Below, piece by piece: positions 448 to 33,857 of a DNA stretch of 64,000 nt; the stretch's first letter is position 1, and every line of letters begins with the position of its first letter. A model generated the notes under the pieces. The model had not been told where the DNA came from. It did not search any database and saw only the letters and a list, made by a program, of their open reading frames with translations. The stretch spans positions 15,540 through 79,539 of the forward strand of contig URCD01000001.1 of the NCBI GenBank assembly GCA_900546215.1, given 5' to 3'. The translations under genes and the position numbers were made by a program. The DNA comes from an uncultured Eubacteriales bacterium (GTDB taxonomy: Bacteria > Bacillota > Clostridia > Lachnospirales > Anaerotignaceae).

Positions 448-487
448 CAGCCCTACGCTTTAAGCGTAAGGCTGTTTATTATTTTTT
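446..487. terminator. Bidirectional rho-independent terminator between convergent genes
   Basis: Hairpin cagccctacgc-tttaa-gcgtaaggctg, flanked by an A-run on the left and a T-run on the right. Confidence 0.6.
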
Positions 488-3037: not shown

Positions 3038-3149
3038 AGTATCGCTTCCTCTCCGTTTTATTATATTCATGTTATCATTTTAAACAGCGTTATTCAAGGC
3101 CGTTGACAATAGTGCGTTATTCTAAATTGAGGATAATGCATTTTCTGAC

Positions 3150-3195
3150 AACGCCTTTATTTACTTTGAGTTTAATGATATAATTTTATAATCAA
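3150..3195 (+). promoter_or_regulatory. Candidate sigma-A promoter region for xdhA (extended -10 'tgatataat')
   Basis: TGnTATAAT-like element at 3176-3184, plus a second tataat at 3187-3192. It sits in the 206-bp divergent region between the two hydroxylase genes. Confidence 0.3.
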
Positions 3196-3243
3196 AAAAA
3201 GTATTGTGGTAAGACATATATATAGACAAAGGGGTGAATAAAT

Positions 3244-5526: not shown

Positions 5527-5541
5527 GGGGAGGTATGACAG

Positions 5542-6423
5542 ATGTATGATATAAAAGCGTTATATGAGGCGCAGTCGGTATCCGATGCTGTGAAGCTCCT
5601 TACGGAACACCCGGATGCCGTTGTAATAGCAGGCGGAAGCGATGTGCTGATAAAGATGAGAGAAGGCAAGCTTGCAGGCTGTGAGCTTGTAAGCATATAC
5701 GGCCTTGACGAGCTTAGGGGAGTAAGGCTTGAGGAGGACGGAACAATCCGTATACTTCCTCTGACAAGCTTTTCGCATATAACAAAAAACGACATAATTC
5801 AAAAATATATAAATGTGCTTGGCGAGGCTGTGGATATGGTAGGCGGCCCGCAGATAAGAAATATCGGAACAATCGGCGGAAATACCTGCAACGGTGTTAC
5901 CTCGGCTGATTCCGCGTCAACGCTTCATGCCTATGACGCTGTTATGGAAATAACGGGGCCTGACGGAATCAGGCAGATTCCTATTCACGATTTTTATATA
6001 AGCGCCGGCAAGGTAGACCTGAAGCATAACGAGCTGCTTACTTCAATACTTATAAAAAAAGAAAGCTATGAAAACTGCTTTGGCCACTACATAAAATACG
6101 CAATGAGAAACGCCATGGATATAGCCACAACTGGATGTTCAGCCAACGTTAAGCTTTCATCGGATAAAAAGACCTTTGAAAGAGTACGTATAGCATATGG
6201 GGTTGCTGCTCCAGTTCCCGTCAGGGCGAAAAGTGCTGAGGATTTTATAAACGGCAGGGCAGTTACGCAGGATACTGTAGACGAGTGTGCAAAGCTTGCC
6301 TTGAATGACGTTAATCCAAGAACAAGCTGGAGAGCCTCAAAGGAGCTGAGACTGCAGCTTATAGAGGAACTTTCAAAAAGGGCTGTTACTGAGGCTGTAA
6401 AGCTGGCTGGAGGTGAGCTGTGA
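5542..6423 (+). CDS. xdhB: Xanthine dehydrogenase family FAD-binding subunit (CoxM/XdhB-like)
   Basis: 293 aa. 'VIAGGSDVLIKMREG' and 'GTIGGN' FAD-binding molybdopterin-dehydrogenase motifs. RBS ggggaggt. Confidence 0.75.
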   Translation: MYDIKALYEAQSVSDAVKLLTEHPDAVVIAGGSDVLIKMREGKLAGCELVSIYGLDELRGVRLEEDGTIRILPLTSFSHITKNDIIQKYINVLGEAVDMVGGPQIRNIGTIGGNTCNGVTSADSASTLHAYDAVMEITGPDGIRQIPIHDFYISAGKVDLKHNELLTSILIKKESYENCFGHYIKYAMRNAMDIATTGCSANVKLSSDKKTFERVRIAYGVAAPVPVRAKSAEDFINGRAVTQDTVDECAKLALNDVNPRTSWRASKELRLQLIEELSKRAVTEAVKLAGGEL

Positions 6424-6908
6424 TGCAGAGAAAGCTTGTAAAATGCACTATTAACGGAAAGTATACCGAGACTATGGTAGATGTAAGGGCATCCCTTACG
6501 GATATGCTCAGAAACGATTACAGGCTTACGTCGGTCAAAAAGGGCTGCGAGGTGGGCGAGTGCGGCGCGTGCAACGTCCTTATAGATGGGGAGTGCTTTA
6601 ACTCCTGTATTTACCTTGCGGTTTGGGCAGACGGAAAGGAAGTCAGAACCCTTGAAAGCCTGCTTGGACCTAATGGAGAGCTTTCAGATATACAGCAGGC
6701 GTTTATCGACGAAGGGGCTGTTCAGTGCGGTTTTTGTACTCCAGGGTTTATAATGTCTGCCGTTGAAATACTTGAGAGCGGAAAAAGGTACTCAAGAGAC
6801 GAGCTGAAAAAACTGCTTTCAGGGCATCTTTGCCGATGTACTGGATACGAAAATATAATTAATGCGGTAGAAAAGACAATGTTAAGCAGACTGGAAAATA
6901 AACAGTAA
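6423..6908 (+). CDS. xdhC: Xanthine dehydrogenase family [2Fe-2S] small subunit
   Basis: 162 aa. The CEVGECGAC, QCGFCTPG and CRCTGY cysteine motifs are present. The ATG overlaps the xdhB stop (TGATG). RBS ggaggtgag. Confidence 0.8.
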   Translation: MQRKLVKCTINGKYTETMVDVRASLTDMLRNDYRLTSVKKGCEVGECGACNVLIDGECFNSCIYLAVWADGKEVRTLESLLGPNGELSDIQQAFIDEGAVQCGFCTPGFIMSAVEILESGKRYSRDELKKLLSGHLCRCTGYENIINAVEKTMLSRLENKQ

Positions 6909-6940
6909 AATGTTTATAAATTTGATGAGCTTCAAAGTAA

Positions 6941-6970
6941 GGCGGATATTATATATCCGTCTTTTTTGTT
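6941..6970 (+). terminator. Rho-independent terminator after xdhC
   Basis: ggcggatat-tat-atatccgtc followed by ttttttgtt. Confidence 0.6.
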
Positions 6971-7433
6971 GCTCGGTAAAAAATTCCTTTATTAAACTAA
7001 AATTTTATATGTTACAAAAAACAATTGTATATAAAATAAAAGGTGGAAATATCGTAAAATAATTCTTTTTTCGTATTATTTAACTTAATTTTGTCGGGAT
7101 AAGTGTGCAAAATCCCGTATTCTATTGACGAAAGTTGAAATATTTAATAAGCTTTATAAAAATACAGAAGGCGTTAAGCCGACTGACACAATTTAATATT
7201 GAAACATAATCCGAAGCCTGGTCCGAAAGAAAGGAGAAGAGCAGAGCGGCCAACCGGCCGCCATAGGAAGAATGAGAGCGGATTTTGTTCAGATATAAAA
7301 GAAACGGCCAAAACACAACAATTCCCCAAAAGCTGTGTTTTTGCCTGCGCTTTTTTGATGAATAAAACCCCTCTAAATTTTCCTCTGCTCACTTCAGCAA
7401 GACCAGGCTTTTTATATTTATTCATAGCTTGGG

Positions 7434-7467
7434 ACAACTTTTAGTTGGGGAATACAATTTTTAGTTG
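7434..7467 (+). promoter_or_regulatory. Tandem direct repeat ACAAyTTTTAGTTG x2, immediately upstream of the enolase-superfamily gene
   Basis: acaacttttagttg (7433-7446) and acaatttttagttg (7454-7467), 8 bp apart, ending 18 nt before the start codon. Confidence 0.3.
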
Positions 7468-7485
7468 TAAAGGATGGTGTTTCAA

Positions 7486-8652
7486 ATGAAAATTGCAGAA
7501 ATCAAAACTTATCCGCTTATGTACATGAAGGAATCTCCTAAAATACCCAGGACATTTCTTCTTTGTAAAATAACAACCGACGACGGGCTGGTGGGCTGGG
7601 GAGAGGCAAGCTCGGCGTACGGTCATTCTTATCCTCTTGTTGTCAAAGAAATCATCGACCACACTCTCTCCAGACTTGTTATAGGAGAGGATCCCCGGGA
7701 TATCGAAAAACTTGTGTCTAAAATGCGCACATGGATATGGGGATACCTCGGCCCTGTGGGAGTTTCAAATCAGGCTATTGCCGCCGTTGAAATTGCCATG
7801 TGGGATATTGTCGGAAAGGCAGCAGGACAGCCGGTGTATAAGCTGCTTGGAGCATTTAGGGACGAAATTGAGATTTACGGGACGGGCTGTACAAATTTTG
7901 ATGTGGATTATGAATGGCACAGGGAGTTTTTCAGACCATTGCTTGAGGCAGGATTTAAGGGGGTAAAATGCCGTGTAGGAAAAAGCAAGGATTGGGATGA
8001 GGCCTTTGTAGCCAACATCCGTGAGTTTATAGGCGACAACAAAAAGTTGTTTATTGATGCGTATATGACGTATACCCCGGAGACCGCATTTGAGATGGCA
8101 GGAAGATTTGCCGGCTATAAGCCTTATTTCTTTGAGGAGCCTATATCACAGTATGACCTTGAATCCTTGGAGAAAATATCTAAAGAGTCCCCTGTTCCTA
8201 TTGCACTGGGGGAACGTGTGACATCTCTTTATGAGTTCAAAAATCTCAGGGAAAAGCATATAGGCCAGATATGGCAGCCGGACGCATGCATAGCCGGAGG
8301 AATATCCGAGGCGAAAAAAATCTGCGCTTTAGGCGAGGCATACAGCATAGAATGCATACCTCATATAGGGGGCATAACGGCTGTAGGTATAGCCGCAAAC
8401 TTAAACCTTGCGCTTTCATGCAGAAATGTTAAGCAGCTTGAGGTTGATGGCGCTATGCTTCAGCCTATGAGGGATGACATAATAGAGGACGACATTTTTA
8501 ACATTGTAAGGATTAAGGATGGAATGCTAAGGCCATCGGGCAGGCCCGGGCTGGGAATAGAAATAAGGGAAGATGTGCTTAAGGATTTTAAATATGAGAG
8601 AGGTCCTGTTTATCCCGATTTCTATCCGCAGTATGGTTCTGGCATACTCTAA
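7486..8652 (+). CDS. Enolase-superfamily enzyme (mandelate racemase / muconate lactonizing enzyme family; dehydratase-like)
   Basis: 'MKIAEIKTYPL', 'VGWGEASS' and the MR/MLE fold pattern. ATG 7486 is preferred over 7474 because of AGGA spacing. Confidence 0.7.
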   Translation: MKIAEIKTYPLMYMKESPKIPRTFLLCKITTDDGLVGWGEASSAYGHSYPLVVKEIIDHTLSRLVIGEDPRDIEKLVSKMRTWIWGYLGPVGVSNQAIAAVEIAMWDIVGKAAGQPVYKLLGAFRDEIEIYGTGCTNFDVDYEWHREFFRPLLEAGFKGVKCRVGKSKDWDEAFVANIREFIGDNKKLFIDAYMTYTPETAFEMAGRFAGYKPYFFEEPISQYDLESLEKISKESPVPIALGERVTSLYEFKNLREKHIGQIWQPDACIAGGISEAKKICALGEAYSIECIPHIGGITAVGIAANLNLALSCRNVKQLEVDGAMLQPMRDDIIEDDIFNIVRIKDGMLRPSGRPGLGIEIREDVLKDFKYERGPVYPDFYPQYGSGIL

Positions 8653-8708
8653 AAAATTTTTATAGAACCAAAACAATATTTTTATGCCGATAAATAAGGG
8701 ATTTTGTA

Positions 8709-8737
8709 TTGACAAAAATATTTTTGTAAAATATAAT
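8709..8737 (+). promoter_or_regulatory. Consensus sigma-A promoter (TTGACA-17-TATAAT) driving the nucleoside-transporter operon
   Basis: ttgaca at 8709-8714, an exact 17-nt spacer, tataat at 8732-8737. About 185-nt leader before the first CDS. Confidence 0.65.
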
Positions 8738-8922
8738 AATTAAAACTTTTATAAATGAGTAATTTGTGATATAATAAAATATTACGCATTTTTATAAAGG
8801 GCTATGAGTCGGTTAGATGACAATGACGTCGTTGCTTTTAAGTAACGGCGTTTTTTGCAAGTTGGACGCTGTTAATTATTGTGTCAAAGGGGCGCAATGA
8901 GGATATAGAAAGGGAGGATAAA

Positions 8923-10038
8923 ATGAAAAGGAATTTAAAGAAACTGCTTGCAATGGCACTATCTGCCACAATGGTACTTTCAGTGGCTGCATGCTCCAGC
9001 TCTAAAAAGGAGGAGCCTGCGGACAAGGGACAGACAGAAGAAAGCGGAACAAAATCTGACATTAAAATTGGCCTTATTACAACAATCGGAGGACTCGGTG
9101 ACAGCTCAATCGGTGATGAGGGCTATAACGGAGTAAAAAACGCTTCCGAAGTACTTGGTTTTGAATTTGACTATTCAGAACCCATGACATCACAGGACCT
9201 TGAGGCACTTATAATCGAGTATTCCGAATCAGGCGAATATGACCTCATAGTCACACTTGGAAATGAATCTCTTGAGCCGGTTCAGTCTGAGCAGGCAAAT
9301 TATCCTGACCAGAAATATCTTGTATATGATATTGAGGCAGAGCATGAAAACGTTATTACAGAATGGTTCTCAAAGGATGAAATCGGTTTCATGGCAGGAT
9401 GCTTCATGGCGCTTATGGAGCCTTACGGACAGCTTATAATTAATGGGGAAACAAAAACCTGGGAACCCGGAAACACATACGGCCTTATAATCGGAGGAGA
9501 GTATCCTTCAACGGTTTCGGCAATTACAGGCGCAGCGGCTGGCATTAAATATATTGACCCTGAGAACGAGTATTTATACGCAATTGTAGGCGACTGGAAA
9601 GACCAGGCTAAAAATAAGGAGCTTGCCCTCTCAATGTACGATCAGGGAGCTCACTTTATTTTCCATAACGCAGGCGGCGGATGCAACGGAATACTTGAGG
9701 CTGCCAAGGAAAGAGACGGTTTCTTTGTTGGTTACGATGGAAACCAGAACAACTTAGACCCTACACATGTAGTTGCTTCTTCAATCAAATGCAACAGTGA
9801 CGTTATTCTTCGTGTGCTTACGCAGTTTGTTGAGACAGGAGAACTGGCATGGGGAACAGCAGAGGAAAATGGATACGCAAACGGCGGTATCGACTTCGTA
9901 TATCAGGACGGACTTGAGGTTCCTGAGGAAGTATCTGCTGCTATGGAAGCAATAAAAGAAAAATTGAAAGCCGGAGAAATAACACCTCCTTCAACATGGG
10001 AAGACGTTGAAACATTCACAGCGGTATACGAAGGCTGA
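8923..10038 (+). CDS. BMP-family (PnrA/TmpC-like) ABC substrate-binding lipoprotein, nucleoside-type
   Basis: Signal peptide and lipobox 'VAACSS'. 'KIGLITTIGGLGDSSIGDEGYNG' is the BMP-family signature. RBS agggagg. The GTG-extended ORF from 8881 is rejected. Confidence 0.8.
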   Translation: MKRNLKKLLAMALSATMVLSVAACSSSKKEEPADKGQTEESGTKSDIKIGLITTIGGLGDSSIGDEGYNGVKNASEVLGFEFDYSEPMTSQDLEALIIEYSESGEYDLIVTLGNESLEPVQSEQANYPDQKYLVYDIEAEHENVITEWFSKDEIGFMAGCFMALMEPYGQLIINGETKTWEPGNTYGLIIGGEYPSTVSAITGAAAGIKYIDPENEYLYAIVGDWKDQAKNKELALSMYDQGAHFIFHNAGGGCNGILEAAKERDGFFVGYDGNQNNLDPTHVVASSIKCNSDVILRVLTQFVETGELAWGTAEENGYANGGIDFVYQDGLEVPEEVSAAMEAIKEKLKAGEITPPSTWEDVETFTAVYEG

Positions 10039-10108
10039 TAAATATGAGATCACACAGATGTCATAGGGGTTCAACCTCTATGACATTTGTTTTAAGGAGG
10101 CCAGACAG

Positions 10109-11650
10109 GTGGAAAACAACATTATTGAAATGAAAAATATCTGCATATCCTTTGGAGACCTCATGGCCAATAAAAACGTAGACTTTTCAGTTAAAGAGGG
10201 AGAGATAATGGCGCTGCTGGGGGAGAACGGAGCCGGTAAGTCAACCCTAATGAAAATTCTCTACGGTCTGTATGCGAGGGACAAGGGCGAAATAACGGTA
10301 GAAGGCAAAAAAATGCCGCATAAGTATTCGCCTATGGATATGATTAATCTTGGTATTTCAATGGTTCCACAGCAGTTTATGCTTGTAGACGCCTTTACGG
10401 TTGCAGAAAATATAATTCTGGGCAAGGAGAAGGTTGTAGGAAAATTTGTATTTAATAAAAAGAAGGCTGAACAGCTGGTTGCGGACCTCTGCGAGGAATT
10501 TGACATACGTCTTAACCCATCCGATACTGTAGCCTCGCTTTCCCTTGGAGAAAAGCAGAAAATAGAAATTCTTAAGGCTCTGTACAGGGGCGGCAGGGTA
10601 ATAATACTTGACGAGCCGACAACAATACTAACCCCTCAGGAGGTTTCAGAGCTTTTTTCTCTTTTAAAATCTCTAAAGGCAAAGGGCATATCGGTGATTT
10701 TAATTGCGCATAAGCTTCAGGAGGTTATGGACGTTACAGACAGGATTACAGTTATGAGGCTTGGGGAAAAGGTGGCGGTAGTTAATACTGCCCAGACAAA
10801 CATAAACGAGCTTGCTGAAACTATGGTAGGCAGAAGGCTTAACAGCGTTTGTGTGGATTTCAAGGAGGAGCATGAGGCTCCGCTTATCAAATTTGTAGAC
10901 GTTTCTACAAAAAAGCAGGGAGAAAGATGCCCTCTCAATAATTTTAACCTGGAGCTTTATCCGTCAAGAGTTGTGGGAATTGCAGGAATTGACGGCAACG
11001 GACAGACAGAACTTGTGGAAGTAATGGCCGGCATAAAGCAGATTAAAAGCGGTTCTATAATAATTGACGGCAAGGAAATCAGGGATAATTCCCATGCCGT
11101 TATGAAAGATCAGGGAATAGGGATAATTCCCGAGGACAGAAGGGAACAGGGATTGGTGCTGGACCTTTCGATTAAGGACAATATTATTATAGGACGAAGA
11201 AAGGACAAGGAATTTGTCAACAAGGGTGTGTTTAAAAAGAGAGATGTTAATGCCTATGCCGATGAGCTTATAAAGGAATTTGACGTGCGTCCGCCCAAAA
11301 GGGACGTTATCTGCCGTTTTGTTTCAGGGGGAAACCAGCAGAAAATAGTACTGGCTAGAGAACTGAGCAGGCCGGGTCTTAAAACAATTGTCGCTTCACA
11401 GCCTATAAGAGGACTTGATATAGGAGCGATAGAGTTTACTCACAGAACCCTTTTAAGATTTCGTGAGGAAGGAAAGGCCGTACTCCTTATATCCAGTGAT
11501 TTGGATGAGATAATGGAGCTGAGCGATTATATAGCGGTATTGTCTGAAGGAGAAATTGTCGCCTTTAAGCCAAGAAACCAGTTTACAGTAGAGGAAATAG
11601 GCCTGTATATGGGCGGAGAAAAAGCTGAGGAAAGGAGAGACGCCATATGA
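10109..11650 (+). CDS. ABC transporter ATP-binding protein with duplicated ATPase domains
   Basis: 513 aa. Walker A 'GENGAGKST', two ABC signature regions, Walker B 'ILDEPT' twice. GTG start 7 nt after aggagg. Confidence 0.8.
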   Translation: MENNIIEMKNICISFGDLMANKNVDFSVKEGEIMALLGENGAGKSTLMKILYGLYARDKGEITVEGKKMPHKYSPMDMINLGISMVPQQFMLVDAFTVAENIILGKEKVVGKFVFNKKKAEQLVADLCEEFDIRLNPSDTVASLSLGEKQKIEILKALYRGGRVIILDEPTTILTPQEVSELFSLLKSLKAKGISVILIAHKLQEVMDVTDRITVMRLGEKVAVVNTAQTNINELAETMVGRRLNSVCVDFKEEHEAPLIKFVDVSTKKQGERCPLNNFNLELYPSRVVGIAGIDGNGQTELVEVMAGIKQIKSGSIIIDGKEIRDNSHAVMKDQGIGIIPEDRREQGLVLDLSIKDNIIIGRRKDKEFVNKGVFKKRDVNAYADELIKEFDVRPPKRDVICRFVSGGNQQKIVLARELSRPGLKTIVASQPIRGLDIGAIEFTHRTLLRFREEGKAVLLISSDLDEIMELSDYIAVLSEGEIVAFKPRNQFTVEEIGLYMGGEKAEERRDAI

Positions 11651-12714
11651 AAGATAATATGAAATTTAAAAAGTTTTTAGGCGACGCCGGAAGAATTGTG
11701 GCGGCATTCCTTATAGCTCTTATAATAGGCGGAATTTTCCTTGCCTTTTTAGGACAGTCACCGATAGAGGCATATATAGTTATTTTTTCCAAGGCCATAG
11801 ACGGCTTTGACCAGGTGCTTAGGCGTATGACCCCGCTTATGCTGACGGGACTTGCGGTTGCTATCCCTCTTAAAACAGGAATGTTAAATATGGGCGGAGA
11901 AGGCCAGATTGCAGTCGGTGCGCTTATAGGAGCGCTTGTCGGCGCATATGTGCCGCTGCCGGGCATTATTCATCCTATAGTATGTATGATAGCCGCTGCA
12001 ATAGGCGGAGGAATTGCGGCGCTTATTCCGGCATTTCTTAAGGTTAAGTTTGGTTCGGGAGAGGTTGTAACCTCTATCATGCTTAACTACGTTATTATGT
12101 ATATCATTAAATATCTTACAATGTATCCGCTGAGAGCATCCAACAACATGCCTCAGACAGCTGATGTTTTAGATTCAGCCGTTTTGGCAAGACCTGTTCA
12201 GGGACAGCAGTGGGCATGGGGGCTTTTTATCGCCCTTGGAATTTGTTTTCTTATGCAGTTTTTCCTTGAAAAAACCAATAAGGGACTGGAGCTTAAAAGC
12301 GCAGGATTAAGCCCGCTTACCTCAAAGTATCAGGGAATCAATATCAGGACGCTTTCTCTGCTTGGCATGGTTATAGGCGGTGCGTTGGCTGGCGTTGGAG
12401 GAACTCTTGAGGTTCTTGGCGGAAAATACGCATATTTGGACGGATATTTTGACAACTATGGATGGGACGGAGTGGCTATCTGTTATATGGCAAAGGGAAA
12501 TCCCATTGTTGTTATACTTACGTCATTCATTATTTCCGTAATAAGGGTAGGTGCGGCTGCGCTGGACAGAAAAACAAATATATCGGTATTCTTTTCCATT
12601 GCCCTCTACGGAGTTATAATCATTCTTCTTGTTTCACCCCATCTTATCCAAATTATTATTGACTTCTTCAAAAAGAGATTTGCACCAAAAGAAACGGCAA
12701 AGGAGGAAGCGTAA
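11647..12714 (+). CDS. ABC transporter permease (BMP-family system)
   Basis: 355 aa, multi-TM hydrophobic. ATG overlaps the upstream stop (ATATGA). Confidence 0.75.
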   Translation: MKDNMKFKKFLGDAGRIVAAFLIALIIGGIFLAFLGQSPIEAYIVIFSKAIDGFDQVLRRMTPLMLTGLAVAIPLKTGMLNMGGEGQIAVGALIGALVGAYVPLPGIIHPIVCMIAAAIGGGIAALIPAFLKVKFGSGEVVTSIMLNYVIMYIIKYLTMYPLRASNNMPQTADVLDSAVLARPVQGQQWAWGLFIALGICFLMQFFLEKTNKGLELKSAGLSPLTSKYQGINIRTLSLLGMVIGGALAGVGGTLEVLGGKYAYLDGYFDNYGWDGVAICYMAKGNPIVVILTSFIISVIRVGAAALDRKTNISVFFSIALYGVIIILLVSPHLIQIIIDFFKKRFAPKETAKEEA

Positions 12715-13599
12715 ATGGCAATATCGACTTTATTATCAAGCTCGCTTAGAATGATGACTCCTCTGCTTTTCGCGGCCCTGGGAGTGCTTGTAACCTCAAA
12801 AGCCGGAGTCGTAAATATGGGCATGGAGGGGAACATGCTCTTTGGCGCATTTATTTCGGTCTATTTTACATACGTCACCGGAAATCCGCTGGTTGGGCAG
12901 ATAGCGGCGCTTATGTTTGGCATGATATACGGACTTGTAATGTCCTTTTTCATAATCATATGCAAGGCAAATCATACCGTGTGCGGCCTTGGACTTAACT
13001 TTGTAGCCCAGGGTGCGACCACTGTTTTGCTTGGCACGGTATGGAACACTTCAGGAATATCTCCGTCAGTTACAAAATTTCCCTCATTCACAATGGGGCC
13101 TTTAGGACTGCAGTCCTATAATATAATCATTGTTCTGCTGCTTTGCGCGCTTGTATGGTTTACGCTTGGCAGGACTAACTTCGGACTCAGAATGCGCTCA
13201 GTTGGCGAAAACCCGGCTGCTGCTGATTCAGTTGGTATATCCGTAGGAAGATACCAGCTTATGGCCATGATTATTGCCGGGGCTTTAGGAGGGCTTGCAG
13301 GTTCTGAGCTTGCCATAGGACAGACAGGCTCCTTTGCTAAGCTTATGACCTCATCAAAGGGCTTCCTTTCCTACTCAGCGGTTATTTTTGGCGGCTACGG
13401 AGTTATAGGAACAATTCTTACAACCTTTGTTCTGGGATTTTTGGACGCGTTCCAGATGAGGGCGCAGACCGTATTCAATATTCCAGGACAGCTTCTTCTT
13501 ATGCTTCCTTACCTGTTTACGCTTATTGCGCTTATAGGTGTGGGCAATGTCAAGAAGCCTGCGGCTATGGGCAAAATTTATGAACGAGGAAAATTCTGA
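12715..13599 (+). CDS. ABC transporter permease (second permease)
   Basis: 294 aa, multi-TM. Starts 1 nt after the upstream stop. Confidence 0.75.
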   Translation: MAISTLLSSSLRMMTPLLFAALGVLVTSKAGVVNMGMEGNMLFGAFISVYFTYVTGNPLVGQIAALMFGMIYGLVMSFFIIICKANHTVCGLGLNFVAQGATTVLLGTVWNTSGISPSVTKFPSFTMGPLGLQSYNIIIVLLLCALVWFTLGRTNFGLRMRSVGENPAAADSVGISVGRYQLMAMIIAGALGGLAGSELAIGQTGSFAKLMTSSKGFLSYSAVIFGGYGVIGTILTTFVLGFLDAFQMRAQTVFNIPGQLLLMLPYLFTLIALIGVGNVKKPAAMGKIYERGKF

Positions 13600-13623
13600 T
13601 ATTTTACGGGAGGCAGATAATCA

Positions 13624-15732
13624 ATGAACGCTATCAACAATATAAAATATTTATTAAGTCCTAAGACAATTGCAATTCTTGGATGCTCGGAAACAAATCC
13701 GGGCGGCGCAACGCTTAAAAATCTTTTGAATTTGGGATATAAAGGTGAAATTTATCCGGTACATCCTAAAAAGGAAGAGGTAATGGGAATAAAGTGCTAC
13801 AAATCACTTGAGGATATAGGCAAAGAGGTTGACTGCTGTGTCGTATCACTTAGAGCCTCACTTATACCGCAGACTATAGAGGATATGAAAAAATGCGGTG
13901 CAAAGGCGGCGGTTGTGTTTGCCAGCGGATTTTCGGAAACAGGAGATGAAGGCAGAAGGCTTCAGGCTGAGGTTTCAAAACAGATTGAGGAGGCCGGAAT
14001 AGCCGTATGCGGAGCAAACTGCCTTGGGCTTATAAACCTTACTGACAATATACCTCTTTACAGCGCACCAATCGATGCGGAAAACGAAAACGGGCCTATC
14101 GGTATGGTAGCCCACAGCGGTTCCGCCTGTATAGCTATGATGAGCGCGGCAAGGGGAACCGGCTACAGCTATCTTATTTCCTGCGGCAATGAGGCTGGCC
14201 TTGGCGTACAGGATTACTTTGAATATATGCTTGAGGATGACAGCACGAAGATTTTGGCAGGCTATCTTGAGGCCGTAAGAAGCCCGGAGAAGCTGGCGCG
14301 CGTTGCCGATATGGCGGTTCAAAAGGGCAAGCCTATTGTAGTGTTTAAAACAGGGCGCTCTGAAATAGGACAGAAAACAGCTTCGGCACATTCAGGTGCG
14401 CTTGCAAGTCCTACGGCTATAGTTGACGCATATTTTAAGAAAAACAATATATTAACGGCGAAAAGCTTTGACGAGCTTGCCGAGGCATGTGAGTTGCTTT
14501 CAAAGCTTAAGGACTGGGACCTTGAAACGGATAAAATTGCATGTACAGCCATTTCGGGCGGTCAGCTGGGCTTTACCAGCGATGTTGCAAGCGAGGAAGG
14601 CGTCGAGTTCGGACAGATTGGTGAGGAGGCCAAGGCAAAAATCAGAGCGGTGCTTCCTGACTTTGCTACGGCTAATAACCCTCTAGACGTTACGACAGCG
14701 CTTTTCGACCCCCCGGCTTATAAGGAATGTATAAGGGCCATGGCGGGAGACCCCTCAATCGGCCTTATACTTATCTGCCAGGATGCGGAGGCAGGAATGG
14801 CTGTTGACGAAAGTAAGCTTTACTGCTCCATAGCGCAGGCTATTGTGGAGGTACAGCAGGAAATCAGCAAGCCCATAGCAGTTTTCTCACCAATATCGGC
14901 AGGCTTTGACAAACCGTTCGCGAAAATATTAAGAGACGGCAATATACCGCTTTTACAGGGCGCACATGAGAGTCTTCATGCGGTTAAGCTGCTTATTGAT
15001 TGGGATAAAATTAAAAAGAATTATGGTAAAAAGGCAGAGATAACAGAGCAGAAAAAACTTGATTTTAACGGAAGCAGAGTTCTCAGTGAAAGGCAGAGTA
15101 AGGCCCAGTTTGAAAAATTCGGACTTAGCGTGGCTAAGGATATTCTGGTTCAGACCAAGGACGAGGCAGTTAAGGCTGCGGATGAAATAGGGTATCCTGT
15201 GGTAATAAAGGTAGACTCACCCGATATTCTTCATAAAACAGAGGCTGGAATTGTAAAGCTGAATATTAAAAATGAGGCTGAACTTACTGAGGCATATGAT
15301 GCTGTGATTGCCAACACTAAGAGTTATAATGCTGACGCGAGGATAAGCGGCGTTTCAGTTCAGGAGATGGTTGAAAGCGGTGTTGAAATGCTTATCGGCG
15401 CTAAAAATGATCCTTCTTTTGGACCGTCGGTAATGGTGGGTCTGGGAGGCATATTCGTAGAGGTATTTAAGGATTTCTCCCTGTCTCTGGCTCCGGTTAA
15501 TAGGGCTGAAGCCTTAGAAATGATAAATTCGCTTAAGGGAAGCAAGCTTCTTTATGGAGCTAGGGGAGCAAAAGAAGCAGATACAGAAGCCCTTGCCGAT
15601 TTTATTGTAAAATTCAGCCAGATGGTTGCCGCAAATAGAGATACCTTTGCTGAAATAGATATTAACCCTGTGATAGTTCTTGAAAAGGGAAAGGGTGTAA
15701 AGGCTGTTGACGGACTTATTATCAGCAAATGA
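13624..15732 (+). CDS. ADP-forming acyl-CoA synthetase (acetate--CoA ligase [ADP-forming] family: CoA-binding + succinyl-CoA-synthetase-like + ATP-grasp domains)
   Basis: 702 aa. N-terminal CoA-binding 'IAILGCSE' Rossmann, a C-terminal ATP-grasp-like region, and overall NDP-forming ACS architecture. RBS gggagg. Confidence 0.65.
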   Translation: MNAINNIKYLLSPKTIAILGCSETNPGGATLKNLLNLGYKGEIYPVHPKKEEVMGIKCYKSLEDIGKEVDCCVVSLRASLIPQTIEDMKKCGAKAAVVFASGFSETGDEGRRLQAEVSKQIEEAGIAVCGANCLGLINLTDNIPLYSAPIDAENENGPIGMVAHSGSACIAMMSAARGTGYSYLISCGNEAGLGVQDYFEYMLEDDSTKILAGYLEAVRSPEKLARVADMAVQKGKPIVVFKTGRSEIGQKTASAHSGALASPTAIVDAYFKKNNILTAKSFDELAEACELLSKLKDWDLETDKIACTAISGGQLGFTSDVASEEGVEFGQIGEEAKAKIRAVLPDFATANNPLDVTTALFDPPAYKECIRAMAGDPSIGLILICQDAEAGMAVDESKLYCSIAQAIVEVQQEISKPIAVFSPISAGFDKPFAKILRDGNIPLLQGAHESLHAVKLLIDWDKIKKNYGKKAEITEQKKLDFNGSRVLSERQSKAQFEKFGLSVAKDILVQTKDEAVKAADEIGYPVVIKVDSPDILHKTEAGIVKLNIKNEAELTEAYDAVIANTKSYNADARISGVSVQEMVESGVEMLIGAKNDPSFGPSVMVGLGGIFVEVFKDFSLSLAPVNRAEALEMINSLKGSKLLYGARGAKEADTEALADFIVKFSQMVAANRDTFAEIDINPVIVLEKGKGVKAVDGLIISK

Positions 15733-16750
15733 ATTTGAAAGGCCGATAAAGGACTGGCCTAAAATTGACCTTCACAGACATTTGGAGGGAGCTGTGAGAA
15801 CGGACACCTTCAAAGATATAGTCAGGGAATATAAAATAGAACTCCCGGAGGGGGAATATACGGGCATACGGGACAATATATGCATATGCTCAGGGGATGA
15901 AAAATCCCTTACAGCCTTCCTTAAAAAGTTTGTATGGCTGAGAAAATTATTTGTTAATAAAGAGGCTCTCGCAAGGATAACCTACGAGGCTGTTGAGGAC
16001 GCGGCAAAAGACAATGTAATATATCTTGAGCTGAGGTTTAATCCGGCAAGGATGTTTGGCTGCGGGCTTTCGCATAGTGATGTAATTGACGGCATAAATG
16101 AAGGCATAAGGCTTGCAAAGGCAAAATATCGGATTAATGTCGGCCTTATATGCGGCATAGCAAGGGATATGGAGTATAGCTTCGCCTCAGATACAATTGC
16201 TTTCGCAGTAAAAAATATGGACAAGGGCATACTGGCTATGGACATCATGGGAGACGAAAAGTCCAGCCCCAAGGAGTTCAGCCGGCTTATAAAAGAGGCA
16301 GCAAAGGCTGGTCTTCCCGCTACCGTACACGCCGGAGAGGCAGGTCCTGCCGAAAACATAATTGAGAGTATAAATGAGCTTGGAGCTGTAAGGATAGGCC
16401 ATGGCAGCCATATACTTGAAAATAAGACGGCTCTGGAGCTTGTAAAGGAGAAAAACGTACTTATAGAGGCATGCCTTACAAGCAACGTACAGACAGGAGC
16501 GGTAAAGGATATGGTCAGCCATCCGCTTAAAACGCTGCTGGCAGAGAATGTACCTGTATGCCTTAATACCGATGACCCGGGCGTCAGCGGATGCCTTGAT
16601 TTGAGCGGTGAGTTTTATACGGCTAAAAGCGTATTTTCATTGGACTTTGAGGATTTAATCAAAATGCTTATGACAGGCGCTGAACATATATTTGACATAA
16701 ACAGCAGGGACACAATAAAGAGGGATATAAAAAACTATTTTAAAATTTAG
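15707..16750 (+). CDS. Adenosine/adenine deaminase family amidohydrolase
   Basis: 'IDLHRHLEGAV', 'HAGE' and 'CLNTDDPG' are the classic ADA metal-binding motifs. Its TTG start overlaps the upstream gene by 26 nt. Confidence 0.75.
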   Translation: MTDLLSANEFERPIKDWPKIDLHRHLEGAVRTDTFKDIVREYKIELPEGEYTGIRDNICICSGDEKSLTAFLKKFVWLRKLFVNKEALARITYEAVEDAAKDNVIYLELRFNPARMFGCGLSHSDVIDGINEGIRLAKAKYRINVGLICGIARDMEYSFASDTIAFAVKNMDKGILAMDIMGDEKSSPKEFSRLIKEAAKAGLPATVHAGEAGPAENIIESINELGAVRIGHGSHILENKTALELVKEKNVLIEACLTSNVQTGAVKDMVSHPLKTLLAENVPVCLNTDDPGVSGCLDLSGEFYTAKSVFSLDFEDLIKMLMTGAEHIFDINSRDTIKRDIKNYFKI

Positions 16751-16761
16751 GAGGAATTATT

Positions 16762-17574
16762 ATGAGTACTGTTATAACGGAAGTAAAAAGAAGAGTAGGC
16801 TACATAACAATGAACAGGCCTGAAAAGCTTAATGCCTTAAATGATGACCTTCTTATTGATTTATACGACGCTCTCGATAAATTTGATAAGGATGAAGATG
16901 TAAGGTGCGTTATCCTCAAGGGTGCAGGACGTGCATTCTGCCCCGGATTTGACCTTTCTCCCAGAGAGAATCCCTTTGTTACGGTTCCGGACTGGAGAGG
17001 ACATGTTGAACTCGGAAATAAGGTTACATGGAAGATCTGGGAAATGACAACGCCTGTAATCGCGGCTGTTCATGGCTTCTGTCTTGGCGGCGGCTGCGAC
17101 CTTGCTGCTGTATGCGACTTTACAATCGCTTCTGAGGACGCGGTTTTTGCAGAGCCTGAAATACAGTTTAACTCAGCTCCTCCGTTTATGATGCTTCCAT
17201 ATGTTGTGGGAATTAAAAAGGCTAAGGAAATTATCCTTACCGGAGACCGTTTCTCAGCTTCCGAAGCTGAAAAAATCGGACTTGTAAACAAAGTTGTACC
17301 GGCTGACAAGCTTGATGAGGAAGCAACTGCCCTTGCTATTAAGCTTGTTAAAATACCTCAGATTTCGGTTCAGATGAATAAGCTTTCAATCAACAGAATT
17401 TATGAGGCGGCAGGCTTCAGAAGCGGCATTAACGCGGGAGCGGAGATGTTCCCTCTTGTACTTATGACAAGTACACCTGAATTTGAGAGATTTAACGAGG
17501 TTAAGGAAAAGGAAGGACTTGCCGCCGCTTTTAAGTGGAGAGATCAGTTCTTTGCAGATGACAACCAGGAGTAA
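16762..17574 (+). CDS. Enoyl-CoA hydratase/isomerase (crotonase) family protein
   Basis: 'KGAGRAFCPGFDL' and 'AAVHGFCLGGGCDLA' are the crotonase oxyanion-hole motifs. RBS aggagg. Confidence 0.8.
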   Translation: MSTVITEVKRRVGYITMNRPEKLNALNDDLLIDLYDALDKFDKDEDVRCVILKGAGRAFCPGFDLSPRENPFVTVPDWRGHVELGNKVTWKIWEMTTPVIAAVHGFCLGGGCDLAAVCDFTIASEDAVFAEPEIQFNSAPPFMMLPYVVGIKKAKEIILTGDRFSASEAEKIGLVNKVVPADKLDEEATALAIKLVKIPQISVQMNKLSINRIYEAAGFRSGINAGAEMFPLVLMTSTPEFERFNEVKEKEGLAAAFKWRDQFFADDNQE

Positions 17575-17586
17575 GGAGGAAGCCCT

Positions 17587-18393
17587 ATGGCATTTGAAAC
17601 CCTTAAATACTCAGTAGAAAATAATGTTGCCTCAATTACCTTTACAAGGCCTGAAAAGCTGAATACGCTTAACATGAAGGTATGGGCGGAAATTGTAGAG
17701 GCTTTGGATACGGCAGAAAAGGACGACGAGGTAAACAGCATGCTCATTATGGGCGAGGGGCGCGCTTTCTGCGCAGGCTTTGACATGGACGACTCCGCAG
17801 AACAAAAGGAGCAGTCCGTGTGGGAGCAGTGGCTGGAGCTTAGGAGCGAAAGGGAAAATTCCCTCAGGCTATGGAATTTCAGGAAGCCGATTGTTGCCGC
17901 AGTACAGGGCTACTGCCTTGGCGGAGGCCTTGAGCTTGTCAATCTTGTGGATTTCATAATTGCGGCTGACAACGCTAAATTCGGGGAAAGTGAAATGCAG
18001 TATTCTTTCCTGCCTCAGCCATCAATGCTTTGGCTTTTGGGAGCTAGAAAAACTAAGGAAATTCTTATGCTGGCCGAGCGTTTCACAGCGGAGGAAGCAT
18101 ATAGGATCGGCTTTGTAAATAAAGTTGTTCCCCTTGAAAATCTTGAGGCGGAGTCAAGAAGAGTAGCGGAGCGCCTTGCAAAAATGCCTACGGAGACAAT
18201 GCAGCTTACAAAGAAAATGATAAATAAGGCCCTTGACGAGCAGGGCATGGATATTATCGGTGAGTGGGGCTGGGATACATTCCTTGTTTCCAAGCTTATG
18301 ACGACAAAACTAAGCGCCGAATATGACAGAATAGCCGCTGAGCAGGGCACCTCGGCAGCTATAAAATGGATGAACGAAAGATTTAAAAACTAA
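17587..18393 (+). CDS. Enoyl-CoA hydratase/isomerase (crotonase) family protein, second paralog
   Basis: 'GEGRAFCAGFDM' and 'AAVQGYCLGGGLELV'. RBS aaggagg. Confidence 0.8.
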   Translation: MAFETLKYSVENNVASITFTRPEKLNTLNMKVWAEIVEALDTAEKDDEVNSMLIMGEGRAFCAGFDMDDSAEQKEQSVWEQWLELRSERENSLRLWNFRKPIVAAVQGYCLGGGLELVNLVDFIIAADNAKFGESEMQYSFLPQPSMLWLLGARKTKEILMLAERFTAEEAYRIGFVNKVVPLENLEAESRRVAERLAKMPTETMQLTKKMINKALDEQGMDIIGEWGWDTFLVSKLMTTKLSAEYDRIAAEQGTSAAIKWMNERFKN

Positions 18394-18397
18394 TTGA

Positions 18398-18436
18398 AGA
18401 GAGGGCGCAGCGTAAGCTGCGCCCTCTCTGTTTATA
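18398..18436. terminator. Bidirectional terminator between the crotonase gene and helD
   Basis: agagagggcgcagc-gtaa-gctgcgccctctct, a perfect 14-bp stem. Confidence 0.7.
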
Positions 18437-32355: not shown

Positions 32356-32413
32356 TGTAAACCCTCCAAAAAAGTGTTATCCTTAGAATAATATAACGGT
32401 GAGGTGTAGGCGT

Positions 32414-33855: not shown

Positions 33856-33857
33856 AA

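What the first reader, a model, noticed from the sequence alone, without database searches (positions are those of the whole stretch)
8709..18393. Nucleoside importer operon that runs straight into CoA-dependent enzymes: candidate uncharacterised CoA-linked nucleobase catabolic route
Seen in sequence, downstream of a textbook TTGACA-17-TATAAT promoter, nine genes lie in one orientation with gaps of 0-70 nt or overlaps:
- BMP-family substrate-binding protein
- double ATPase
- two permeases
- ADP-forming acyl-CoA synthetase (CoA-binding + ATP-grasp)
- adenosine-deaminase-family amidohydrolase, whose TTG start overlaps the synthetase gene by 26 nt
- two crotonase-family enzymes

A strong terminator follows at 18398.

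Established knowledge:
- BMP/PnrA-type importers carry purine nucleosides.
- NDP-forming acyl-CoA synthetases interconvert an organic acid with its CoA thioester while conserving ATP.
- Crotonases hydrate, isomerise, decarboxylate or dehalogenate acyl-CoAs.

Inference:
- Coupling nucleoside uptake and deamination to acid-to-CoA activation and crotonase chemistry is not part of any described purine or pyrimidine pathway.
- It may be a CoA-dependent processing route for a ring-cleavage product of the purine hydroxylase pathway encoded immediately upstream.
- Alternatively the deaminase-family member acts on a non-nucleoside substrate.
Basis: partly seen in the sequence, partly recalled or inferred. 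Interest (0 to 1): 0.65.

Follow-up and report, generated by a model that had tools for sequence, protein, structure and literature searches.

The report
Uncharacterised importer–deaminase–CoA catabolic gene cluster
A gut anaerobe carries a tightly packed operon joining an unusual nucleoside-type importer, an adenosine-deaminase-like enzyme, a CoA ligase and crotonases; the same combination recurs in distant bacteria but matches no described pathway, so it probably breaks down a still-unidentified nitrogen-heterocycle acid.

Summary
There are eight (not nine) co-directional genes at 8923-18393, behind a perfect TTGACA-17-TATAAT promoter, ending in a 14-bp terminator. ADA overlaps ACS by 26 nt. 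The adjacency is not chance. ACS orthologues are rare (about 10 of 185,579 species genomes), and nearly all have crotonase genes beside them. In Oscillospiraceae and Chloroflexota they are interleaved with the same BMP-type ABC importer, a cluster-specific ADA-family clade and an MR-subgroup enolase-superfamily enzyme. Relatives add acyl-CoA dehydrogenase/EtfAB, a nitroreductase-family protein and an FlK-family thioesterase. Two modules are separable: importer+ADA+MR/MLE occurs alone, and so does ACS+crotonase. The binding protein lacks the PnrA residues that hold a purine, so "nucleoside importer" is not supported. Most homologous clusters lack molybdenum hydroxylases, and the published anaerobic urate pathways use no CoA, so the "purine ring-cleavage product" reading is weak. 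My best reading is an inducible route for an imported carboxylate-bearing, adenine-type compound: deamination, β-elimination, CoA activation, then crotonase chemistry. The substrate is unknown. No literature was found on this gene combination.

The parts
7205..7290 (+). Conserved structured RNA motif in the leader of the MR/MLE gene (candidate riboswitch or attenuator sensor)
   Evidence: It is 85% identical over about 90 nt to the leader of the BMP gene in the triad-only operon of L092, while the flanking leader sequence does not align. There are two compensatory pairs in the closing helix. No Rfam family matches. Only two examples are known.
7383..7420 (+). 3' arm of a long alternative helix plus U-run (terminator-like) that pairs with the 5' half of the motif
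   Evidence: Inverted repeat 7214-7241 / 7383-7410. The whole leader 7165-7425 folds at -87.8 kcal/mol, z = -8.4.
7486..8652 (+).
   Evidence: Pfam MR_MLE_N and MR_MLE_C. Best solved relative is 5olc, then other acid-sugar dehydratases. Orthologues of 57-65% identity sit inside the operon in L007, L008, L047, L087, L089 and L102, and orthologues of 79-81% in the triad-only loci. Conserved residues are K165-x-R167, D195, E221, E247, D270, H297.
8709..8737 (+). Sigma-70-type promoter TTGACA-17-TATAAT
   Evidence: 12 of 12 positions match.
8825..8856 (+). Leader hairpin (12 bp) followed by a U-run: attenuator-like element before the first gene
   Evidence: Fold of 8745-8925: -44.9 kcal/mol, z = -3.7; sequence.
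8923..10038 (+). BMP/PnrA-family substrate-binding lipoprotein with a remodelled ligand pocket
   Evidence: Pfam Bmp. PDB hits are weak and equal for nucleoside and riboflavin binders. The PnrA base-contact residues are replaced. The motif TTIGGLGDxAIGD is conserved in the clade.
10109..11650 (+). ABC ATPase with two nucleotide-binding domains
   Evidence: Pfam ABC_tran x2. NCBIfam hits are all below their cutoffs.
11647..13599 (+). Two BPD_transp_2 permeases (11647-12714 and 12715-13599)
   Evidence: They overlap or abut their neighbours.
13624..15732 (+). Fused ADP-forming (ACD-superfamily) acyl-CoA synthetase
   Evidence: Domains. The phosphohistidine loop AHSGAL with H256 is invariant. Nearest solved proteins are the 4-hydroxybutyrate-CoA ligase, the 3-hydroxypropionate-CoA ligase and DddX. 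The orthologue group (44-68% identity) is rare.
15707..16750 (+). Adenosine-deaminase-family hydrolase of a cluster-specific clade
   Evidence: PF00962; TIGR01430 scores 254 bits against a cutoff of 217. The clade is P0122-P0144, and every context examined is this cluster.
16762..17574 (+). Crotonase ECH1 (Asp at the first catalytic Glu position, Glu at the second)
   Evidence: The best PDB hit, 4k29, is deposited only under a generic family name (Enoyl-CoA hydratase/isomerase).
17587..18393 (+). Crotonase ECH2 (both hydratase glutamates present)
18398..18434 (+). Intrinsic terminator
   Evidence: 14-bp G+C-rich stem, -31.8 kcal/mol, z = -7.4, followed by UGUUU.

Best explanation
This is an inducible catabolic gene cluster for an imported, carboxylate-bearing compound that carries an adenine-type (6-aminopurine-like) ring. 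The compound is not an ordinary nucleoside. The cluster is built from two modules that also exist separately.

Module A:
- A BMP-type ABC importer, whose pocket is altered where PnrA contacts the purine base and its 6-substituent, brings the compound in.
- A dedicated ADA-family zinc hydrolase removes the exocyclic amino group, or an N6 substituent.
- The MR-subgroup enolase-superfamily enzyme (7486-8652) abstracts the proton alpha to the free carboxylate and eliminates a beta leaving group (dehydration, ring opening or C-N cleavage).

Module B:
- The ADP-forming ligase converts the resulting short acid to its CoA thioester.
- The two crotonases hydrate, isomerise or eliminate on that thioester.
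- In relatives, an acyl-CoA dehydrogenase/EtfAB (or an NMO-family reductase) reduces the enoyl-CoA. An FlK-family thioesterase or a CoA-transferase releases the product.

Expression is controlled by two leaders: a structured motif before the MR/MLE gene and an attenuator hairpin before the importer gene.

Shown: gene content, family membership, catalytic residues and conserved synteny. Inferred: the order of steps, the direction of the ligase and the class of substrate.
For: - Operon anatomy: tight junctions including a 26-nt overlap between ACS and ADA, one strong promoter and one strong terminator.
- ACS orthologues occur in about 10 of 185,579 species genomes. A crotonase gene lies directly beside the ACS in all of these but Rhodococcus, where it lies about 4.5 kb away across an ABC transporter.
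- The interleaved order importer-ACS-(ADA)-MR/MLE-ECH recurs in Oscillibacter (L007), Ornatilinea (L008), a Chloroflexia MAG (L047) and metagenome contigs L087, L089, L097, L098, L102 and L104.
- The ADA clade (41-49% identity) was found only inside such clusters. It differs from 96 generic relatives at gate-helix positions and at the mouse A183/G184 equivalents, which read DLMNDE instead of DLAGDE.
- The binding-protein clade lacks the PnrA base-contact residues. A canonical Bmp sits next to cdd in the same contig L102.
- MR/MLE keeps the D/E/E metal ligands and the His-Asp dyad but has K-x-R instead of K-x-K. That fits a one-base eliminase rather than a racemase.
- The ACS is nearest to ligases that activate C3/C4 acids and to DddX, which sits in a transporter-ligase catabolic cluster.
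- The importer+ADA+MR/MLE triad occurs as a complete operon in L092 and L094. L092 shares the RNA motif with the window.
Against: - No substrate is identified, and all biochemical steps are inferred.
- The modules are separable, so they might serve different substrates. L092 and L094 lack ACS/ECH. L009-L012 and Rhodococcus lack the importer, ADA and MR/MLE.
- ADA is absent from about half of the clusters (L047, L087, L086).
- In the window the MR/MLE gene has its own leader and is not inside the operon.
- The window's own ADA keeps Gly at the G184-equivalent position (DIMGDE).
- The ADA passes NCBI's adenosine-deaminase cutoff, so plain adenosine remains a possible substrate.
- The RNA motif rests on two sequences only.
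Confidence: 0.45

Rival explanations
1. Two unrelated functions are merely packed together. One is a nucleoside salvage unit (BMP ABC importer plus a genuine adenosine deaminase). The other is a short-chain acyl-CoA unit (ADP-forming ligase plus crotonases, for example for 3-hydroxypropionate, acrylate or crotonate, or for making ATP from acyl-CoA).
For: - The modules occur separately.
- The ADA exceeds the TIGR01430 cutoff and has all catalytic residues.
- Bmp operons commonly sit with nucleoside enzymes, as in the cdd+Bmp operon of L102.
- The nearest characterised relatives of the ACS and ECHs act on C3/C4 acids.
Against: - The genes are interleaved rather than juxtaposed. ACS lies between the permease and ADA, and ADA lies between ACS and MR/MLE or ECH. 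That order is kept across Bacillota and Chloroflexota.
- The ADA and binding-protein clades are specific to the cluster.
- The binding protein lacks the nucleoside-contact residues.
- A canonical nucleoside operon coexists in L102.
Confidence: 0.2
2. One reading: the CoA enzymes process a ring-cleavage product of the purine hydroxylase pathway encoded upstream. That would be a CoA-dependent lower branch of anaerobic purine degradation.
For: - The window has a fused 2Fe2S-Mo hydroxylase (479-3070, minus strand) and an XDH-like L/FAD/2Fe2S set (3244-6908) directly upstream.
- It also has SsnA-, YgfK-, YqeC- and SelD-like genes at 32-42 kb.
- In L010, ACS-ECH1 is followed by a 50%-identical Mo hydroxylase and a protein with a Fer4_20 domain and FAD/NAD(P)-binding (Pyr_redox_2) domains, as in the window's YgfK-like gene, plus a CCG domain.
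- L006 has an Ade-type adenine deaminase nearby.
- The Rhodococcus locus has PucR, AtzD-like and amidase genes.
Against: - Eight other clusters have no Mo hydroxylase within 10 kb.
- The XDH-like operon ends in its own terminator.
- The published 2,8-dioxopurine / reductive urate pathway needs no CoA.
- A dedicated importer implies an external substrate rather than an internal intermediate.
Confidence: 0.1
3. The substrate is not a purine at all. It would be a sugar-acid or amino-sugar-acid-like compound for which the ADA-fold enzyme has been recruited to hydrolyse a different amidine or amide. The MR/MLE enzyme would be the dehydratase, and the CoA module would ferment the 2-keto-3-deoxy or enoate product.
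For: - MR/MLE is nearest to acid-sugar dehydratases and cycloisomerases.
- There is a GntR-FCD regulator in L094, GFO/IDH/MocA and Zn-ADH genes in L092, 2-hydroxyacid dehydrogenases in L092, L086 and L006, and an altronate/galactarate-dehydratase-family (GD_AH) gene and TRAP transporter genes around L006.
- The binding-protein pocket is not nucleoside-like.
Against: From general knowledge of the family, characterised PF00962 members act on adenine-type rings; I did not check this with a tool. The full ADA catalytic set is conserved. The nearest relatives are annotated adenosine deaminases.
Confidence: 0.15

Closest known systems
DddX-type catabolic clusters (ATP-dependent DMSP lyase of the ADP-forming acyl-CoA synthetase superfamily; PMC8163506)
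   Same: Both have a fused ~700-aa ACD-superfamily enzyme placed directly after a transporter in a catabolic operon. It activates a small substituted acid to its CoA thioester, and downstream enzymes handle the enoyl- or hydroxyacyl-CoA. The window ACS scores 307 bits against 7cm9, and the Glu aligned with DddX Glu432 is kept.
   Different: The cation-pi residues Trp391 and Phe435 are Thr and Leu here. The transporter is a BMP ABC system rather than BCCT. Partners are crotonases, ADA and MR/MLE rather than DddB/DddC. The ACS is closer to the Nitrosopumilus 4-hydroxybutyrate-CoA ligase (383 bits).
Menaquinone MenC-MenE-MenB logic (enolase-superfamily eliminase, then CoA ligase, then crotonase)
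   Same: The same three superfamilies act in sequence: elimination on the free acid, CoA activation, then crotonase chemistry on the thioester. This rests on established knowledge and is an analogy only.
   Different: MenE is AMP-forming, whereas this ligase is ADP-forming. No men genes are present. The MR/MLE here belongs to the MR subgroup, not the OSBS/MLE subgroup. The context is catabolic and includes an importer.
PnrA/BmpD purine-nucleoside ABC receptors (PMC7093131)
   Same: Same Bmp fold, lipoprotein signal, and operon with a double ATPase and two BPD_transp_2 permeases.
   Different: The base-recognition residues are replaced: Asp27, Ser28, Phe36 and Asn37 become Thr, Ile, Ile and Gly, and Phe186 becomes Trp as in the riboflavin binder RfuA. 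Similarity is only about 72 bits.
Adenosine deaminase (Add, TIGR01430) and N6-substituted-adenine hydrolases of the same family
   Same: All Zn ligands and catalytic Glu, His and Asp-Asp residues are present, and the score is above the TIGR01430 cutoff.
   Different: It forms a separate clade that occurs only in this cluster. Substitutions lie in the gate-helix region and at the A183/G184 equivalents. It is translationally coupled to a CoA ligase.
2,8-dioxopurine / reductive urate pathway of gut anaerobes (10.1101/2025.04.24.650524; 10.1101/2025.05.19.654654)
   Same: It shares a genomic neighbourhood in this window: XdhD-like, YgfK-like and SsnA-like genes plus selenium-cofactor genes.
   Different: Neither paper mentions CoA, a hydratase, an adenosine deaminase or an ABC transporter. 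Most homologous clusters are not next to those genes.
CoA-dependent reductive routes with ACAD/ETF (carnitine Cai/Fix; caffeate CarABCDE)
   Same: In the fuller versions of the cluster (L008, L047, L087, L089, L102) a ligase, a crotonase, an acyl-CoA dehydrogenase and EtfBA are combined, as in those electron-sink pathways.
   Different: The window itself has no ACAD/ETF. The extra ADA, MR/MLE and BMP importer have no counterpart there.

Membership tests
PnrA-type purine nucleoside receptor | Bmp (PF02608) fold in an ABC operon | tested here: met
   144 bits against a cutoff of 24. The operon has an ATPase and two permeases.
PnrA-type purine nucleoside receptor | Purine stacked between two Phe residues, with Asp27 and neighbouring loop residues contacting the base (PMC7093131) | tested here: not met
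   Alignment to 2fqw shows Asp27 to Thr, Ser28 to Ile, Phe36 to Ile, Asn37 to Gly and Phe186 to Trp. The changes are conserved in the clade.
PnrA-type purine nucleoside receptor | Binds purine nucleosides | not testable with these tools
   Needs DSF, ITC or co-crystallisation.
Adenosine deaminase (PF00962 / TIGR01430) | HxH, H and D zinc ligands plus catalytic Glu, His and Asp | tested here: met
   H23, H25, H208, E211, H232, D289 and D290 are invariant.
Adenosine deaminase (PF00962 / TIGR01430) | Score above the curated equivalog cutoff | tested here: met
   TIGR01430 scores 254.3 against 216.55. All PRK09358 sub-models are below their cutoffs.
Adenosine deaminase (PF00962 / TIGR01430) | Substrate pocket like that of generic ADAs (DLAGDE loop, gate helix) | tested here: inconclusive
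   The clade consensus is DLMNDE and the window has DIMGDE. Differences at positions 54, 58, 81 and 82 separate the clade from 96 relatives. HLEG in place of HLDG is shared by all 120 nearest homologues, so it is not diagnostic.
NDP-forming acyl-CoA synthetase (ACD superfamily) | CoA-binding, CoA-ligase flavodoxin and ATP-grasp domains, plus the phosphohistidine loop | tested here: met
   Domains. H256 in AHSGAL is invariant across 20 orthologues. It aligns to His292 of DddX.
DddX DMSP lyase | Trp391 and Phe435 cation-pi pair and the Glu432 base (PMC8163506) | tested here: not met
   The aligned residues are Thr, Leu and Glu. The region aligns poorly.
Crotonase superfamily enoyl-CoA hydratase | ECH fold with two catalytic glutamates (rat E144 and E164 positions) | tested here: met
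   ECH2 has GGGLELV and FGESEM, so both glutamates are present. ECH1 has GGGCDLA and FAEPEI, so Asp plus Glu, which makes hydratase activity uncertain for ECH1.
Enolase superfamily, mandelate racemase subgroup | D/E/E metal ligands, His-Asp dyad, K-x-K on strand 2 | tested here: inconclusive
   D195, E221, E247, D270 and H297 are present. The K-x-K motif is K165-x-R167 in all six orthologues.
2,8-dioxopurine / reductive urate pathway | Enzyme set XdhD or XdhAC, YgfK, SsnA, HyuA, YgeW, YgeY, YgeX, YqeA, with no CoA intermediates | tested here: not met
   None of the eight genes belongs to those families. The papers contain no CoA, hydratase or ADA terms.

The most novel reading that the evidence does not exclude
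The importer, the ADA-family hydrolase and the enolase-superfamily eliminase form a dedicated pathway for a carboxylate-bearing modified adenine nucleoside or nucleoside analogue released from decaying biomass. Candidates are N6-threonylcarbamoyladenosine (t6A) or another N6- or N9-carboxyalkyl adenine. In this reading the ADA-like enzyme cleaves at C6 and the MR/MLE enzyme performs a beta-elimination on the released or remaining hydroxy-acid. The CoA ligase, crotonases and ACAD-ETF then ferment the carbon skeleton. The conserved 75-90-nt leader motif would be a new riboswitch class that senses the compound.
Probability: 0.12. Interest if true: 0.85.

Novelty: new variant of a known kind. Interest (0 to 1): 0.6.

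Why it matters
Every component belongs to a well-known superfamily, but the combination has no described counterpart. It joins a BMP-type importer, an ADA-family hydrolase, an MR-type enolase-superfamily enzyme, an ADP-forming CoA ligase and several crotonases, with or without ACAD/Etf. It is conserved in gut Oscillospiraceae and in Chloroflexota of the kind recovered from anaerobic environments. Finding its substrate would add a new catabolic route, possibly for a modified purine or another N-heterocyclic acid that currently has no known microbial fate. It would also assign functions to cluster-specific clades of five large enzyme families and show that the BMP binding-protein family reaches beyond nucleosides. 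It might yield a new cis-regulatory RNA. Cultured carriers exist (Oscillibacter sp. PC13, Chakrabartyella piscis BP5G), so the question can be tested directly.

Tried and rejected
- Known riboswitch in either leader: Rfam at gathering thresholds over the whole window found only a lysine riboswitch at 54378-54545. A permissive scan of 6900-9000 gave only noise.
- Resemblance of the motif to ykkC (CUGGUCCGAGAG) and to the PyrR site (UCCAGAGAGG) is recalled from memory and was not supported by Rfam.
- More copies of the RNA motif: a pattern search over 104 loci, a covariance model over 30 sources and a scan of viral contigs found none beyond the window (L001 is the same contig) and L092.
- Glu in place of mouse ADA Asp19 as a sign of adenine-deaminase-like specificity: rejected, because all 120 nearest homologues have HxH[LVF]EG.
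- DddX-like sulfonium lyase: the cation-pi residues are not conserved.
- Ribose or pentonate catabolism after ordinary nucleoside cleavage: no nucleosidase, phosphorylase or sugar dehydrogenase is conserved in the cluster.
- A 645-aa ORF after MR/MLE in L092 is an antisense artefact. The real genes there are a convergent 2-hydroxyacid dehydrogenase and a DUF1836 gene.
- ACAD, Etf, FlK-family, nitroreductase-family, NMO and ANTAR homologues are absent from the 64-kb window.
- Literature searches for the gene combination and for bacterial t6A catabolism found nothing relevant.
- Look-ups of P0043 and of the window protein 50970-52448 found no record.

Full report
**1. Observation**

The interval contains eight co-directional genes:
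- a Bmp-family binding protein, whose true start is the ATG at 8923 behind a GGAGG (371 aa, as called on the identical ENA contig L001);
- a double ABC ATPase;
- two BPD_transp_2 permeases;
- a fused ADP-forming acyl-CoA synthetase (CoA_binding_2 + Succ_CoA_lig + ATP-grasp_5);
- an A_deaminase-family protein;
- two ECH_1 crotonases.

Junctions are +70, -4, 0, +24, -26, +11 and +12 nt. The TTG start of the deaminase gene is forced by an in-frame TAA at 15698 and by the HxH motif beginning at codon 23.

The promoter at 8709-8737 matches 12 of 12 positions. The terminator at 18398-18431 is a 14-bp G+C-rich hairpin (-31.8 kcal/mol, z = -7.4). The 185-nt leader holds a 12-bp hairpin followed by a U-run (8825-8856; z = -3.7 for the leader), so the operon probably has an attenuation step.

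**2. The adjacency is not chance**

The synthetase has a sharply bounded orthologue group: 44-68% identity, then a drop to 41% or less. A scan of one genome per species (185,579 species) found orthologues in about ten:
- a Eubacteriales MAG that is 97% identical (probably the source species);
- Chakrabartyella piscis;
- Oscillibacter sp. PC13;
- Angelakisella;
- an Oscillospiraceae MAG;
- Ornatilinea and a Chloroflexia MAG;
- Radiobacillus, Virgibacillus byunsanensis and Rhodococcus jostii.

I ran tblastn of the window proteins against these loci and against metagenome contigs found through homologues. I also used gene calls with Pfam hits. Together they give one picture:
- Nearly every ACS orthologue has at least one crotonase gene directly beside it. 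In Rhodococcus jostii the crotonase lies about 4.5 kb away, across an ABC transporter.
- In the anaerobes the order is (FlK-family thioesterase)-Bmp-ATPase-permease-permease-ACS-(ECH)-(ADA)-MR/MLE-ECH x 2-4. It is often flanked by MarR and by acyl-CoA dehydrogenase-EtfB-EtfA-nitroreductase-family genes (L008, L047, L087, L089, L097, L098, L102, L104).
- Oscillibacter (L007) has an NMO-family reductase and an ANTAR response regulator with its kinase.
- L085/L086 replace ADA and MR/MLE with a CoA-transferase, an isochorismatase-family hydrolase and a 2-hydroxyacid dehydrogenase.

The same interleaving in Bacillota and Chloroflexota argues for a functional unit, whether it was inherited or transferred as a block.

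**3.

Its orthologues (57-65% identity) sit inside the operon elsewhere, between ADA or ACS and the crotonases.

All six orthologues aligned here keep the D195/E221/E247 metal ligands and the D270-H297 dyad of the mandelate-racemase subgroup. They have K165-x-R167 instead of K-x-K. The best solved relatives are acid-sugar dehydratases and cycloisomerases (5olc and others). A single-base eliminase is therefore more likely than a racemase.

**4. Two separable modules**

The closest relatives of the window's MR/MLE (79-81% identity; L091-L095) lie in operons Bmp-ATPase-permease-permease-ADA-MR/MLE with no ACS or crotonase. Their neighbours are a GntR-FCD regulator (L094), GFO/IDH/MocA and Zn-ADH genes, and a convergent 2-hydroxyacid dehydrogenase (L092).

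Conversely, ACS+ECH occurs without the triad in several loci:
- L009, next to a sodium:solute symporter.
- L010, next to two XdhD-like Mo enzymes and a protein that has a Fer4_20 domain and FAD/NAD(P)-binding (Pyr_redox_2) domains, as the window's YgfK-like gene does, plus a CCG domain.
- The two Bacilli. Both have an NMT1-type ABC system and an ECH_2 hydrolase-like gene; Virgibacillus (L012) also has Fe-ADH and aldehyde dehydrogenase genes.
- Rhodococcus, with an ABC system, PucR regulators, an AtzD-like protein and an amidase.

The window is a compact fusion of both modules.

**5. Individual components**

*Binding protein.* It scores only 72-88 bits against solved Bmp proteins, and the riboflavin binder RfuA scores as well as the nucleoside binder PnrA. 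In the alignment to 2fqw, PnrA Asp27/Ser28 (the loop that contacts the purine 6-substituent, PMC7093131) and Phe36/Asn37 become Thr/Ile and Ile/Gly. Phe186 becomes Trp. The motif TTIGGLGDxAIGD is conserved in the cluster clade and, in a variant form, in the triad-only loci. Contig L102 carries, 5 kb downstream of the cluster, a cytidine-deaminase+Bmp+ABC operon whose Bmp has the canonical D...SFN motif. So 'purine nucleoside importer' is a family label, not a supported function.

*ADA-family protein.* It has all zinc and catalytic residues and passes the TIGR01430 cutoff. It belongs to a clade (P0122-P0144, 41-49% identity) that was embedded in this cluster in every context examined. Compared with 96 generic relatives, the clade differs at positions 54, 58, 81 and 82 (the gate-helix region), at 181/182 (mouse A183/G184; DLMNDE against DLAGDE), and at 242 and 328. 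The window's own protein reads DIMGDE. I first took the Glu replacing mouse Asp19 as a sign of base rather than nucleoside specificity. It is shared by all 120 nearest homologues, so I dropped the argument.

*ACS.* It keeps the phosphohistidine loop (H256). It is nearest to the Nitrosopumilus 4-hydroxybutyrate- and 3-hydroxypropionate-CoA ligases and to the DMSP lyase DddX. The DddX cation-pi residues are not conserved, so it is not a sulfonium lyase.

*Crotonases.* ECH2 has both hydratase glutamates. ECH1 has Asp at the first of the two positions. The best solved hit for both, 4k29, is deposited only under a generic family name. The Metallosphaera 3-hydroxypropionyl-CoA dehydratase ranks second for ECH2 and third for ECH1.

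**6. Regulatory RNA**

The XDH-like operon upstream ends with its own terminator (6939-6963). The 320-nt leader of the MR/MLE gene folds at -87.8 kcal/mol (z = -8.4).

Within it, 7205-7290 is 85% identical to the leader of the Bmp gene of the triad-only operon in L092, although the rest of the two leaders does not align. The closing helix shows two compensatory changes, and an internal hairpin has a G-C to G-U change and a different loop. The 5' half of the motif can alternatively pair with 7383-7410, which is followed by a U-run. That is the geometry of an ON-type attenuator.

No Rfam family matches. I found no further copies in the loci held or in viral contigs. With two sequences this is a lead, not an established RNA family.

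**7. Relation to purine catabolism**

The window also encodes the following:
- a fused 2Fe2S-Mo hydroxylase (479-3070, minus strand);
- an XDH-like L/FAD/2Fe2S set (3244-6908);
- at 32-42 kb, YqeC-like and SelD-like genes, a YgfK-like flavoprotein and an SsnA-like amidohydrolase.

These are parts of the recently described 2,8-dioxopurine / reductive urate pathway. Neither paper mentions CoA, hydratases, ADA or ABC transporters, and eight other clusters have no Mo hydroxylase nearby.

Weak links to purines do recur: L010, the Ade-type adenine deaminase beside the C. piscis cluster, and the PucR and AtzD-like genes in Rhodococcus. These are compatible with the released ring feeding purine catabolism. 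They do not show that the CoA enzymes act on a purine ring-cleavage product.

**8. Mechanism proposed**

Family membership, catalytic residues and synteny are shown. The steps below are inferred.
1. The importer takes up a carboxylate-bearing compound with an adenine-type ring.
2. The ADA-like enzyme hydrolyses at C6.
3. The MR-type enzyme eliminates a beta substituent from the free acid.
4. The ligase forms the CoA thioester.
5. ECH1 and ECH2 hydrate, isomerise or eliminate. Relatives go on to reduce an enoyl-CoA with ACAD/EtfAB and release the product with an FlK-family thioesterase or a CoA-transferase.

The logic parallels MenC-MenE-MenB and DddX-type clusters. I give this single-pathway reading 0.45.

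A specific and attractive but untested candidate class is modified adenine nucleosides with a carboxylate, such as t6A. I found no literature on their bacterial catabolism.

**9. Verdict**

This is a real, conserved and apparently undescribed catabolic cluster made of familiar parts. I class it as a new variant of a known kind and score interest at about 0.6. That score would rise sharply if the substrate turns out to be a modified nucleoside, or if the leader motif proves to be a riboswitch.

Noticed in passing
window 54378-54545 (+): Lysine riboswitch (RF00168, 94 bits) upstream of genes at 54641-57145.
   Followed up: no
window 32399-42084: YqeC-like and SelD-like genes, an Ldh-like gene, a nucleotidyltransferase, a 983-aa YgfK-like flavoprotein (37655-40606, minus strand) and an SsnA-like amidohydrolase (40669-42084, minus strand). 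These are parts of the selenium-dependent 2,8-dioxopurine / reductive urate pathway. HyuA, YgeW, YgeX, YgeY and YqeA were not seen among the window genes I annotated.
   Followed up: partly
window 45043-47981 (+): Two 2-hydroxyacyl-CoA-dehydratase-type genes. One has an HGD-D domain; the other has an HGD-D domain fused to a BcrAD/BadFG activator ATPase. A beta-eliminating-lyase-family gene lies just before them at 42694-43725.
   Followed up: no
window 59490-60797 (+): LarA-family (lactate racemase-like) gene.
   Followed up: no
window 6939-6963 and 479-6908: A fused 2Fe2S-Mo hydroxylase (minus strand) is divergent from an XDH-like L/FAD/2Fe2S operon that ends in its own 11-bp terminator. This makes it a separate transcription unit from the cluster studied.
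   Followed up: partly
L007 4300-4560: The leader of the Oscillibacter cluster holds two tandem copies of an ~80-nt unit (ACTTATGGCTGGTG...CAATGGTGGCTACTC...), each ending in a hairpin plus T-run. It lies downstream of an ANTAR response regulator and kinase, so it looks like ANTAR-controlled antitermination. L086 has a comparable leader.
   Followed up: no
L102 18749-21026: A canonical nucleoside operon (cytidine deaminase, a Bmp with the D...SFN motif, an ABC ATPase) lies 5 kb from the cluster in the same contig.
   Followed up: yes
L010 13041-20966: ACS-ECH1 is followed by two XdhD-like 2Fe2S-Mo hydroxylases (one 50% identical to window 479-3070) and a 742-aa protein with Fer4_20, Pyr_redox_2 and CCG domains, the first two as in the window's YgfK-like gene.
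   Followed up: partly
L011 and L012 (Radiobacillus, Virgibacillus): Distant ACS orthologues (44-46% identity) sit with NMT1/OpuAC-like ABC systems, several crotonases and an ECH_2 hydrolase-like gene. L012 also has Fe-ADH and aldehyde dehydrogenase genes. The layout resembles DMSP, acrylate or 3-hydroxypropionate catabolic clusters.
   Followed up: no
L047 10001-12102: The ACS gene of the Chloroflexia MAG matches in two overlapping segments in different frames (probably a frameshift or an assembly error). L102 and L104 show similar splits.
   Followed up: no
L104 1921-4320: Two tandem Bmp binding-protein genes precede the ABC genes in a Ruminococcaceae genome. This may reflect two related ligands.
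   Followed up: no
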